Source: Octopus sinensis (Eukaryota). Taken from it: 64,000 nt of DNA. Shown here one piece after another: positions 21,301 to 24,300 of the stretch (its first letter is position 1; each line of letters begins with the position of its first letter). The stretch spans positions 23,374,001 to 23,438,000 of the forward strand of contig NC_043001.1 in the NCBI RefSeq assembly GCF_006345805.1, read 5' to 3'. Both the position numbers and the translations under genes were made by a program. Below the pieces are notes generated by a model that saw only the letters and a program-made list of their open reading frames with translations, searched no databases and was not told where the DNA came from.

Positions 21301-24300
21301 AATGATTGCATTGGTTACAGTACATAACTTGTAATGTTTGAGTACGTGTGTGTGCATGTGAGAGTGAATGATAAACAACTGCTTTGGTTGTTAACTCTTC
21401 TGCTTTATGTCGCAGTAATAAGTTCTAAGTCTCTTTTGGCAGCGGAACATAGAAAGTTACTGATGCAGGCTGGACCGGCATGACTACTCTCAAGAGCTGA
21501 GGGGAAGGTGCAGAAATTTTCCTCTTCAGTTGTTGACATCCAGAAAATAATAAATTTGATGATTCTTAGTGCTGAGTTCCCCCGACCTGGCGTGAGGAAT
21601 TCAGGTGGTGATGTTGGAGAACAAGTTCCAGTTTCAAGACTTGACCTGCACAAGCAGCAGACCTGTCTTGGACAGTTAAATGGCACTGGCTTTCCTTTCT
21701 TTCAACTTCATCTTCTTGCTTCACCCCCTTTTTTTTCTTTTTTCTTTTTCTTTTTTTTAACCAGAATTTTCTGGGTTAATGCCTTTTTATTTGATAAACA
21801 CTTTTTTTTTTCTTTTTCTTTTTTTTTTGCCCCCATTTCACAAGTTCAATAAAAATGTAGTGGCAATAAAATAGTATGCATTACTGGCACTGACCTGGAT
21901 CTAGGATTTTCTCACACAAATCTGGTAAGATATAGTATTGAGTGTTGCTATTCTGTCTGGAAACACCTAAGATTGAAACTGCTGGGTATTGGTATAAACT
22001 GATGCTGTTTGCTTTTCAGTGAGTAATAAACAATGGAGATGTGTTAGAGGTGAATGTGTGTGTGTAAATATAACTTTTGACATATTGTTTGTGCTATGTT
22101 TAATCAAGGTTTGAGTCCTTGTTAACCTTTCTTGTGTTTTCATAGAGTTTAACTGCTTTTTAAGTTGATGTAAAATTACATTTATCACATACAAATATTT
22201 TGTCCACTTGTAATTTTCAAGAAGTTATAGTATACTGATTTAAGGGCTATTAAAGTGTTTTCATGTTTAAACCTGTTAAAGCAGGTATAGATTGTCCATA
22301 GTGAATTAATCCTCTAAGTTACATGAGATTACCTTAATTTTTTAGTTATTTTGTAGCAAACTAAGTTCTATTATTGGTTCTTTCATCTAATGTCTTTCTA
22401 TGTGATTTTATAATTTATGCAGTTGGCCGCTACTTATTCCTACTTGACAAATGTTAATTTTGCTTGTATTGTGTTAAGTAACATGCCTCCAATTTAAGAT
22501 TTATTGCTAGATTGTTTGTCATCTGAGAAATTAAAGTTATATATTAATCATTGATAGTATGTTTTGGAATTTACTCACAGGACTTACCATTAATCCTTGT
22601 CAGTGGTGTTTCCTGATTCATAGCAACACAGAATGTCATGTTTTTGTTTGGATAATGCAGCCACCTCCTCACTATGAATTTCCAGGATTATCTTCTCAGC
22701 ATTGCAGCCCGTGACTCACCGGATGTTAAAGTTCGGTTTCTCGGACTACTTCTCTACTCCTATCTCTCCCTTGTCAACTGTCCTGATGGAGTCATGTCGG
22801 AAACCTGCCAGCAAAGAGGGAATGCTTACTCTTAAAACTGCATATGGGACTTTGCTTCCTGCATGCTGAGCTGACAGCTGAAGGGTATCTTGTTAGACTT
22901 ACATAAACATGTACTCGGATATGTGACCGACGCAAATAACAAATGTCTAGCCTCTAGCAGGCTAGCCTTCACCACACACGGCCAGCAGTTACTGTCTCTT
23001 CACTGACAGTTTAATAGTCACCACACAGTTATTGTGTTAAACCTTTTCTTGGTTTTACTGTAAACAAAAGCATTCAAGAAGAGAGAGCAAATTGCCGATA
23101 CCAGCCAGATGCATGCTCCCTCTTTCAATTGGTTACTACTAACCTGGACGTTCAGGTGAATTTTTAAGTTGGGGACAGGAAGTAAACACCCTGGGGTTGC
23201 AGGTAAGATGGCAGCAATTAAGGTAAGTTAACTACTTTTCTTACCCAGGGTAAGCTCTTGGCCCTAACTAAAATTTGTTCAAAGTTAAAATTGTCAAGCT
23301 TGTGGGAGTGTGCATTCTTGTTGGTTTCATAGTATTTCATGAATAGACATAACTGGCTCTTCTGATTTCAGTTAAAAGCAAATAAATATTATTCCTACTA
23401 ATATTCTGCCTTTCTTCTTGTTATGGGGGTTTTCCCAACAATGCCCTGTAACAATTTTACAGATGTGGATGATATAAAATTTGTGATAAACTTTGACTAC
23501 CCGGCCACCTCAGAAGACTATGTTCACCGTATTGGGCGAACTGCTCGCAGCAACAATACTGGCACTGCGTACACTTTCTTCACTCCTGCTAATATGAAAC
23601 AAGCACAAGACCTTATGTCTGTGCTTAAAGAAGCTAACCAAGTCATCAATCCTAAATTAATGCAATTGGCAGAGAGTGCAAGAGGAATATTTGGAAAAGG
23701 TAATTGTTCCTATATTATTAAATTGTGCCATGGCCACAATAAAGCATGTTAAGTTTTTCTTTTATGCTTCTGTGGTTTGGCAGAAAAAAAAAAGTCTTCT
23801 TCGATCTTCCATTTTTTTTTTTCCATAGAATTTGGAATTTGCAAGGGAGATACAGTATTTGATTGTCAAAACTTTTTGCCATTTTCTAATGAAAACGTTT
23901 TTATGGAATTTTGAATTTAAGCTGGTTTTGAAAATTTTTAATATTAAGTAGGATTTAGAATCATTTTTAAAAGATATTTTCAGATTTTTTATTTTAAACT
24001 GCTCTGAAAGTTTGTCAGGTTTAGAATCAACCATATAAAATAAAAGGGTGGGGATTGTTATTACTCAAAATAACAATGTCAAACTATTATTTGTTTAGCT
24101 ACTAAAGCCATGTTATCACCAATGTAATAAGCACAATTTACATGAATGTTTTGAAATGAATAGGTAAATCTGTGGACTTAAAAGCATTTTCATGATTTTT
24201 AATTTTGAAAGGGGAAATCTAGTTCCTATATTTTAACTAGTCTTTTACTCGTATGTTTTTTTTTCTTGCTCATTTAAATACCATTTTGTTTAACCTTTTT

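What the first reader, a model, noticed from the sequence alone, without database searches (positions are those of the whole stretch)
23396..23462. Hairpin between the pyrimidine tract and the 3' AG of helicase intron 11
Seen: branch-like TACTAAT (~23396-23402) and a pyrimidine tract (23404-23417), then TTGTTATGGGG (23418-23428) pairing with CCCTGTAACAA (23444-23454; 11 bp, two G-U), then only TTTTACAG. Folding would bring the tract next to the AG; unfolded, the acceptor is poor. Established: yeast DBP2 autoregulates through its intron, and the equivalent late intron of vertebrate DDX5/DDX17 is conserved and often retained. Inference: the helicase could regulate its own splicing by unwinding this stem. 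I recall a similar CCCTG.AACAA end in the vertebrate intron but have not verified it.
Basis: partly seen in the sequence, partly recalled or inferred. Interest (0 to 1): 0.75.

Follow-up and report, generated by a model that had tools for sequence, protein, structure and literature searches.

The report
Ancient RNA locks in DDX5 intron
An octopus gene for the RNA-unwinding enzyme DDX5 shares with fish three short self-complementary segment pairs in one long intron, among them a hairpin just before the splice site that in vertebrates is catalogued as microRNA-3064, and these predicted folds likely let the enzyme limit its own production by slowing that intron's removal.

Summary
The 11-bp stem is present as described, in intron 11 of an Octopus DDX5 gene. 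Alone it is only modestly above chance (23 of 500 shuffles), but it is conserved. A model built from teleost sequences alone ranks this stem first in the 64-kb window. Octopus and fish differ by two compensatory pair changes and keep a tandem G-U. The teleost hairpin matches Rfam mir-3064. The octopus form (37 nt) is too short for a pre-miRNA and lacks the seed, so the stem likely predates the miRNA. Two further long-range helices in the same intron are shared with fish and other invertebrates: H1 beside acceptor-like AGs, H2 enclosing GGTAAG donor-like sites. RNA contigs show the intron both spliced and covered. Best reading: the stem shortens the branch-point-to-AG distance while H1 and H2 hide decoy sites, so unwinding by DDX5 would favour retention. 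Helicase action is untested. The stem is absent from most invertebrate acceptors sampled, the AG may itself be paired, and no cryptic junction was seen. The scan earlier found different masked-site hairpins in arthropod and diatom homologues, not this stem. Verdict: new variant of a known kind (plant DEAD motif).

The parts
9291..25067 (+). DDX5/DBP2-family DEAD-box helicase gene, 13 coding exons, 746 aa
   Evidence: all 12 introns GT-AG; 744 of 746 residues identical to P0002 (O. bimaculoides DDX5)
21093..23462 (+). Intron 11 (2370 nt, phase 1, after ...ASRGL); retention brings an in-frame stop about 22 codons in
   Evidence: spliced joint and intron-covering contigs
21391..21415 (+). Internal acceptor-like site (TTAAC, pyrimidine tract, CAG); the tract block is shared with teleost L038/L039
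   Evidence: E 0.31; E 0.046; use not observed
21465..21484 (+). Helix H1, 5' arm: GCAGG block (AG at 21467-21468) and 10-nt core 21475-21484
22791..22808 (+). Helix H1, 3' arm: 10-nt core 22791-22800 and CCTGC 22804-22808, about 1300 nt from its partner
   Evidence: 10 of 10 core pairs in the whole-intron MFE
23110..23120 (+). Helix H2, 5' arm
   Evidence: pair probability 0.97-1.0
23137..23155 (+). TACTAAC and CAG inside the H2 loop: candidate cryptic branch point and acceptor
   Evidence: sequence; use not observed
23200..23255 (+). Three consensus 5'-splice-site-like sites (GTAAG after 23202, 23222, 23249) inside the H2 loop; the second and third are predicted paired
23304..23314 (+). Helix H2, 3' arm
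23396..23402 (+). Branch-point-like TACTAAT (predicted branch A 23401, 62 nt from exon 12)
   Evidence: predicted only
23404..23417 (+). Pyrimidine tract upstream of the stem
   Evidence: its 3' part is mostly unpaired
23418..23454 (+). Helix H3, the finding: 11-bp stem with tandem G-U and 15-nt loop, homologous to the outer stem of vertebrate mir-3064
23455..23462 (+). Constitutive 3' splice site TTTTACAG
   Evidence: joint across the 2370-nt intron in 3 of 4 runs

Best explanation
The stem at the end of octopus DDX5 intron 11 is the counterpart of the vertebrate mir-3064 hairpin and one of three predicted helices shared with fish, which together likely set how efficiently this intron is spliced and likely let DDX5 repress its own production by unwinding them. 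Shown by sequence: the three arm pairs, their order, their conservation with pair-preserving changes, a long AG-free zone and donor-like sites inside the H2 loop. Inferred: folded H3 brings a distant branch point and tract within about 25 nt of the AG; folded H1 and H2 hide decoy acceptor and donor sites. When DDX5 is abundant it would open these 10-13-bp duplexes, the true acceptor would weaken, the decoys would be exposed, and the intron would be retained or mis-spliced into a stop-containing message. Untested: folding in cells, use of the decoys, and any role of the helicase.
For: (1) Homology. A covariance model from four teleost loci only ranks 23411-23462 first of 12 matches in 64 kb, both strands (20.2 bits, E 0.009, next 13.3). 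A scan with one teleost arm pair scores it 16 against at most 14 elsewhere; 1 of 100 shuffled windows reached 16. (2) Covariation. 50 of 50 cells pair, 2 of 10 pairs change on both sides (18 of 500 shuffles; slid controls 26-76% paired, no two-sided change, model-fitted alignment of 5 rows). (3) Geometry. Linear branch-to-exon distances of 62, 87, 98, 104 and 106 nt become about 24, 26, 28, 35 and 36 nt once the stem is collapsed (octopus, L010, L038, L039, L043; arithmetic). (4) H2 is the lowest-energy continuous long-range helix in 6 of 22 introns scanned (window, L008, L036, L038, L039, L050). It is found at 0 of 100 shuffles, at a matching position, in 7 of 57 other clusters, including mussel-like, termite-like and teleost loci. 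Its octopus domain folds better than all 200 shuffles (z -4.8). GGTAAG occurs 9 times in 1340 nt of H2 loops (5 of 8 loops) against once in 12,525 nt of the rest. (5) H1 core is found at 0 of 100 shuffles in 11 of 57 clusters (one teleost, L044, nine from one unassigned invertebrate group), and GCAGG precedes it in all five lineages inspected. (6) The 8 H2-bearing clusters have more stable last-90-nt folds than the other 50 (mean z -1.92 vs -0.07, Mann-Whitney p 3e-4; 8e-4 without the window) and longer AG-free zones (p 0.018). (7) In 3 of 4 runs a contig joins across intron 11, and contigs of all 4 runs cover parts of it. (8) Literature: partially spliced p68/p72 pre-mRNA is nearly cleared at low p68 (PMC1920232, passages); yeast DBP2 retention is relieved in a helicase-dead mutant (as cited in PMC4695336, passages); human intron 11 retention of 8-12% (bioRxiv 2021.09.03.458914, passages) and 0.11-0.26 (PMC4737145, table row); an unwinding sensor in plant DRH1 (bioRxiv 2026.01.23.701338, abstract, introduction, passages and one discussion section).
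Against: H3 in octopus-like sequence was found in only 3 of 57 other clusters (two teleost, and L058, which may be chance). The teleost model hit no acceptor in 40 other loci. Clam-like L033 and L048 and the insect- and Daphnia-like loci show no such stem. Stems at the same place in L004, L008, L045 and L095 are positional analogues picked by eye. Folding puts the AG in weak basal pairs even with H3 formed (P 0.76-1.0 in 6 of 7 loci), which fits masking as well as bridging. H3 drops to P about 0.4 in a longer context and is absent from the unconstrained whole-intron MFE. Pyrimidine content next to the AG does not differ between H2-bearing and other clusters (p 0.44). No GT-AG joint inside intron 11 was seen in 4 runs. 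H1 and H2 cores are largely invariant, so covariation is thin (1 of 10 and 2 of 13 columns two-sided). H1 was first noticed by eye in the window against L039 and H2 in the scan, so those loci are not independent tests. Clusters are not phylogenetically independent.
Confidence: 0.5

Rival explanations
1. Masking rather than bridging: H3 plus a basal extension hides the AG and part of the tract, making intron 11 slow to splice by default. Unwinding would then help splicing, and negative feedback, if any, would run through H1/H2 or through other factors.
For: The AG is predicted paired at P 0.76-1.0 in the window and 5 of 6 other loci with the stem folded. An ATCTG block complementary to the acceptor is kept in all four teleost loci and the Rfam consensus shows partial basal pairs. 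The intron is retained in human.
Against: The basal pairs add only about 3 kcal/mol in octopus and use shifting partners. The AG stays paired when the 5' arm is held open, so the prediction does not discriminate. Branch-like motif and tract lie outside the stem at a near-constant collapsed distance. Known feedback is negative.
Confidence: 0.2
2. The arms are kept as binding sites for proteins (a tandem G-U stem; GCATG and YGCY words, recalled as RBFOX and MBNL motifs, sit in H1 and H2). Pairing only gates access for those proteins, and DDX5 feedback is not involved.
For: Most H1, H2 and H3 positions are invariant in sequence rather than freely covarying. The tandem G-U is kept in the window and in 3 of 4 teleost loci.
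Against: Nearly all changes seen in the helix cores preserve pairing. The teleost H2 arm has lost the TGCATG word. No binding data were examined.
Confidence: 0.15
3. The stem is conserved because it is a microRNA precursor (mir-3064, annotated as a 5'-tailed mirtron), and the octopus copy makes or once made a small RNA.
For: Teleost L010/L034 match RF03840 (58.8 bits, E 3e-11, below the gathering score 76). Human and mouse miR-3064 are listed as orthologous mirtrons of DDX5 (PMC12377645, table passages).
Against: The octopus hairpin is 37 nt with 11 bp, has no Rfam hit at E up to 10 and lacks the 5p seed region. The seed also differs in 3 of 4 teleost loci while the stem core is kept. Human miR-3064-5p accumulated irrespective of splicing (PMC4807562, passages). 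It does not explain H1, H2 or the upstream branch geometry.
Confidence: 0.07
4. Chance or convergence: a short G/U-rich stem near an AT-rich acceptor that happens to resemble the fish hairpin.
For: Alone the stem is matched by 23 of 500 shuffles. It is missing from most sampled invertebrates.
Against: Top hit of a fish-only model at the orthologous acceptor; same register, spacing to the AG and tandem G-U; co-occurrence with H1 and H2 in the same order in octopus and teleost.
Confidence: 0.08

Closest known systems
mir-3064 (Rfam RF03840), hairpin at the 3' end of vertebrate DDX5 intron 11
   Same: Same intron, same position ending 8-10 nt before the AG, same outer stem with tandem G-U and two compensatory changes.
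   Different: The octopus hairpin is 37 nt with 11 bp against a 67-position model; no inner stem, no seed, no Rfam hit. The papers seen treat mir-3064 only as a vertebrate miRNA or mirtron, not as a splicing element.
Plant DEAD motif in DRH1/RH14 and RH46 (PMC12218528, passages; bioRxiv 10.64898/2026.01.23.701338)
   Same: Conserved intronic helix in a close relative of DDX5, proposed or shown to sense helicase activity and shift splicing to non-coding forms. H1, beside an AG, and H2, around donor-like sites, resemble it in logic.
   Different: The plant motif is a single 20-bp hairpin hiding an alternative 3' splice site and is described as plant-specific. H3 sits at the constitutive acceptor; H1 and H2 are long-range pairs. 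No sequence relationship was tested.
Intron-mediated autoregulation of yeast DBP2 and human p68/DDX5 (Barta and Iggo 1995 and Moore et al. 2011, seen only as citations; PMC1920232 and PMC4695336, passages)
   Same: Conserved late intron of the same gene family, retention, negative feedback that needs helicase activity.
   Different: The passages read name no cis-acting structure. The three helices are candidates for it in animals. No fungal intron was compared here.
Hairpins between branch point and 3' splice site that shorten the effective distance (yeast COF1, UBC13, APE2; recalled, no call)
   Same: Distant branch motif, AG-free zone, stem between tract and AG.
   Different: Here the stem is shared between a mollusc and a vertebrate lineage and lies in the gene of an unwinding enzyme.
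Decoy-site-driven intron retention (SF3B1, OGT type; concept in PMC4737145, passage; details recalled)
   Same: Retained intron with internal consensus splice sites that splice rarely or not at all.
   Different: The candidate decoys here are enclosed by conserved helices; their use was not observed.

Membership tests
mir-3064 precursor (RF03840) | Located at the 3' end of DDX5 intron 11, ending at the AG | tested here: met
mir-3064 precursor (RF03840) | Outer stem homologous in sequence and pairing | tested here: met
mir-3064 precursor (RF03840) | Scores against the Rfam model (gathering 76 bits) | tested here: not met
   no match at E up to 10 in 20900-23800, none at gathering in the window; teleost L010 reaches 58.8
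mir-3064 precursor (RF03840) | Pre-miRNA-length hairpin carrying the 21-nt 5p sequence and seed | tested here: not met
   37 nt, 11 bp; seed region differs (mature sequence as listed in PMC12377645)
mir-3064 precursor (RF03840) | Processed small-RNA reads | not testable with these tools
   only assembled contigs were available
Plant DEAD motif | Host gene of the DDX5/Dbp2/DRH1 group | tested here: met
   DDX5 is called the closest human homologue of DRH1
Plant DEAD motif | Single 20-bp hairpin overlapping an alternative 3' splice site | tested here: not met
   H3 has 11 bp and precedes the constitutive acceptor; H1 adjoins an AG but is long-range and its use was not seen
Plant DEAD motif | Sequence or intron-position homology with the plant motif | not tested
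   no plant locus was fetched
Plant DEAD motif | Splicing shift depends on the structure and on helicase activity | not testable with these tools
   needs minigenes
Branch-point-to-AG bridging hairpin | Branch motif and tract upstream of the stem, no AG in between | tested here: met
   AG-free zone 82 nt in the window, 91-164 nt in four teleost loci
Branch-point-to-AG bridging hairpin | Collapsed distance in the usual range (about 18-40 nt, recalled) | tested here: met
   about 24-36 nt in five loci; 55 nt in L095; no CTRAY upstream of the stem in L045
Branch-point-to-AG bridging hairpin | AG left accessible when the stem is folded | tested here: inconclusive
   predicted paired through weak basal extensions
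Branch-point-to-AG bridging hairpin | Branch point mapped upstream of the stem; stem needed for splicing | not testable with these tools
   needs lariat reads and mutants

The most novel reading that the evidence does not exclude
DDX5 intron 11 carries a three-lock helicase sensor inherited from the bilaterian ancestor: H1 masks a decoy acceptor, H2 hides decoy donors and H3 props up the true acceptor, so all three respond to unwinding in the same repressive direction. Vertebrate mir-3064 is a later elongation of lock H3, not the reason for its conservation. This would be the missing cis element of animal p68/DDX5 autoregulation, mirrored by separate hairpins in arthropods, diatoms and plants.
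Probability: 0.33. Interest if true: 0.85.

Novelty: new variant of a known kind. Interest (0 to 1): 0.66.

Why it matters
DDX5/Dbp2 autoregulation through this intron has been reported since 1995, but the passages read name no cis element. Three short helices conserved between a cephalopod and teleosts give exact positions for disrupting and compensatory mutations, also in the human gene. Intronic RNA structure recognisable across protostomes and deuterostomes is rare (own knowledge). If the stem predates mir-3064, studies of miR-3064 may partly be reading out DDX5 intron retention. Novelty rests on ten searches of an open-access library, whose listings showed no paper on these helices or on an invertebrate mir-3064 stem. 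Moore et al. 2011 was not held, and supplementary catalogues of human conserved complementary regions were not examined; either could already list the vertebrate helices.

Tried and rejected
No whole genome is held for the window, so paralogues were not examined. Rfam on the window: nothing at gathering, four chance hits around the intron. The junction pattern found 0 matches in viral contigs. Plain blastn of the intron against all upstream regions gave one weak 19-nt hit; the helices emerged only from motif and complementarity scans. Summed tblastn scores were useless for placing loci and were replaced by exon-12 identity. L095 could not be placed: best named hits are teleost DDX5 at 82-86%. 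MAFFT of nine acceptors misaligned the arms and was not used. The teleost model hit none of 40 other loci at the acceptor; its best hit (L033, E 0.036) lies about 400 nt upstream and was treated as chance. An H2-like pair in L007 at an unmatched position, and H1-like local hairpins in L058 and L059 (1 of 100 shuffles each), were not counted; about 170 tests at that level allow one or two false hits. H3-like cores in L037 and L058 lie farther from the AG and are uncertain. A bistable switch using the duplicated arm CCCAACAA plus an AG-hiding hairpin was rejected: -2.3 against -12.8 kcal/mol. A joint landing at 21416 in one run has a 21-nt T-rich 5' side and non-canonical ends; not taken as splicing. 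Contig depths (X3: 122 over intron 11, 500 at the spliced joint, 8 or less in introns 9 and 12) point to retention, but the tool warns that depth cannot rank parts of a gene and X3 is only guessed to be RNA; uncovered introns in other runs prove nothing. One preprint checked for DDX5 poison exons gave nothing specific. Earlier-finding look-ups by place and by sequence were empty.

Full report
OBSERVATION. The finding lies at the end of intron 11 (21093-23462) of a 13-exon DDX5-family helicase gene. The spliced frame gives 746 aa, 744 of 746 identical to the Octopus bimaculoides DDX5 record. The branch-like TACTAAT, the pyrimidine tract, the two 11-nt arms and TTTTACAG are at the stated coordinates and all 11 pairs form, with two adjacent G-U pairs. 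Alone the stem is a modest signal: 23 of 500 shuffles of 23396-23462 fold as well. It is predicted at P 0.72-0.99 in a 200-nt context and about 0.4 in a 450-nt context. It appears in whole-intron folds only when pair span is limited. Among the gene's 12 acceptors this one has the longest AG-free zone and the most stable last 90 nt, but intron 2 is as T-poor.

RELATED LOCI. A pattern for the acceptor and the start of exon 12, blind to the intron beyond its last six bases, returned 103 metagenome loci. With the window they form 58 clusters by their last 90 nt (103 of 104 sequences were long enough). Exon-12 identity places some: teleost (L010, 74 of 75; L038, 75 of 76), mussel-like (L008, 75 of 78), clam-like (L033, L048), termite-like (L050, 77 of 78), thrips-like (L017), Daphnia-like (L064); many remain unassigned. 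Only 19 clusters hold a recognised full intron, 26 hold 1300 nt or more and 39 hold 400 nt or more (window included), so absences are often untestable.

H3, THE FINDING. Teleost loci L010/L034, L038, L039 and L043 carry the same stem in the same register 8-10 nt before the AG, with loops of different length. A covariance model built from these four alone ranks 23411-23462 first in the whole window (E 0.009). A scan with one teleost arm pair does the same, matched by 1 of 100 shuffled windows. On the five-row alignment all 50 cells pair and two columns change on both sides (18 of 500 shuffles). The teleost hairpin matches Rfam mir-3064, annotated in human as a 5'-tailed mirtron of DDX5 intron 11 yet produced irrespective of splicing (PMC4807562, passages). 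The octopus element has no Rfam hit, is 37 nt long and lacks the seed, which also differs among the teleost copies. It is a homologue of the mir-3064 outer stem, not a member of the miRNA family. Against generality: a strict scan with the octopus arms found H3 in 3 of 57 other clusters, and the teleost model found no acceptor stem in 40 other loci. Stems at the same place in L004/L036, L008, L045 and L095 keep the layout tract-stem-AG with diverged letters. Clam-like, insect-like and Daphnia-like loci lack it.

TWO FURTHER HELICES. Comparing the intron with L039 by eye showed a second pair of blocks. H1 (21475-21484 with 22791-22800) occurs in octopus, teleosts, L044 and nine clusters of one unassigned invertebrate group at 0 of 100 shuffles, with a variant in L036 that fails the strict scan (21 of 100). 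A GCAGG block precedes it in all five lineages and a complementary CCTG follows the 3' arm in four. H2 (23110-23120 with 23304-23314) is the top continuous long-range helix in 6 of 22 introns and occurs in 7 of 57 other clusters at a matching position, spanning teleost, mussel-like and termite-like loci. Changes in both helices nearly always preserve pairing, but few are two-sided. H2 loops hold GGTAAG 9 times in 1340 nt against once in 12,525 nt elsewhere in those introns; 3 of 8 loops have none. In octopus two of the three donor-like sites are predicted paired. H2-bearing clusters, defined without the last 90 nt, have more stable acceptor folds and longer AG-free zones than the other 50 (p 3e-4 and 0.018) but the same pyrimidine content near the AG (p 0.44).

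EXPRESSION. Four runs of four studies, chosen from 24 listed, were laid on 19300-24700. Three have a contig joining across intron 11. All four have contigs inside intron 11, one covering it nearly end to end. In the two runs on record as RNA that show spliced joints, introns 7-10 and 12 are bridged by spliced contigs. No GT-AG joint inside intron 11 was seen; contigs drop rare forms. Retention or use of four candidate internal acceptors tested gives an early stop. Human intron 11 retention is reported at 8-12% and 0.11-0.26.

MECHANISM. Folding also pairs the AG weakly with the stem formed, so masking remains a rival. Published feedback is negative: partially spliced p68 and p72 pre-mRNA is nearly cleared at low p68, and yeast DBP2 retention is relieved by a helicase-dead allele (as cited). 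DEAD-box helicases are reported to unwind up to 10-15 bp, the size of all three cores. The simplest joint model is that unwinding weakens the true acceptor and exposes decoys. Every step from folding in cells onward is inferred. My rough odds: about 0.8 that the helices act on splicing of this intron, and 0.5 for the full model with DDX5 as the effector.

COMPARISON AND NOVELTY. It works like the plant DEAD motif but fails that family's defining layout. Earlier scan notes describe a masked acceptor in an arthropod homologue and a masked donor in a diatom homologue (unchecked AI notes; the first led me to PMC12218528). I found a CAG-masking helix with both arms in 9 of 58 clusters, the assigned ones arthropod-like, absent from octopus, which may be the first of these. 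Known already: the intron, its retention, the autoregulation and the vertebrate hairpin. Not found in the listings of ten literature searches: an invertebrate counterpart of the mir-3064 stem, or helices H1 and H2. Moore et al. 2011 and supplementary catalogues were not seen, no human or DDX17 intron was examined directly, and preprint supplements are closed. Verdict: real, conserved, probably splice-regulatory; new variant of a known kind; interest 0.66.

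Noticed in passing
L007, L017, L025, L026, L032, L047, L050, L066, L067, internal to the orthologous intron: A different element: pyrimidine tract, CAG and AGGCAC paired with a downstream GTGCCTCT block, hiding an internal acceptor-like AG; both arms in 9 of 58 clusters, absent from octopus; L050 has it together with H2. Possibly earlier finding e1-7834323.
   Followed up: partly
window 23188-23251: A nested 8-bp helix (ACCCTGGG with CCCAGGGT) inside the H2 loop encloses two donor-like sites and pairs the third; an ACCCTGGG block also occurs in the H2 loops of L036 and L044.
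   Followed up: partly
window 21334-21349 with 22907-22922; 21522-21535 with 22872-22885; 21878-21889 with 22598-22609: Three more 12-16-bp long-range complementary pairs in the intron, nested with H1; conservation not tested.
   Followed up: no
window 21432-21443: TTTTGGCAG upstream of H1 is shared with the unassigned invertebrate group; candidate internal acceptor.
   Followed up: partly
L079, last 40 nt before the AG: Contains the same 5'-arm word as the teleost stem, but its complement overlaps the AG itself; organism unassigned.
   Followed up: no
window 23177-23398: Run X20, labelled as another organism, has a 222-nt contig with one difference over this intronic stretch and almost nothing else of the gene; contamination or a close relative.
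   Followed up: no
window 21093-21098 and L008: The donor of intron 11 is a weak GTTTGT in both octopus and the mussel-like locus, and GTCAGT in teleosts, which could add to retention.
   Followed up: no
L067, about 1900-1300 nt before the AG: Long near-perfect inverted repeat (arms of 38-56 bp), MITE-like.
   Followed up: no
window 9341-15218: The first intron of the gene is 5.9 kb, with GC-richer patches; not examined.
   Followed up: no
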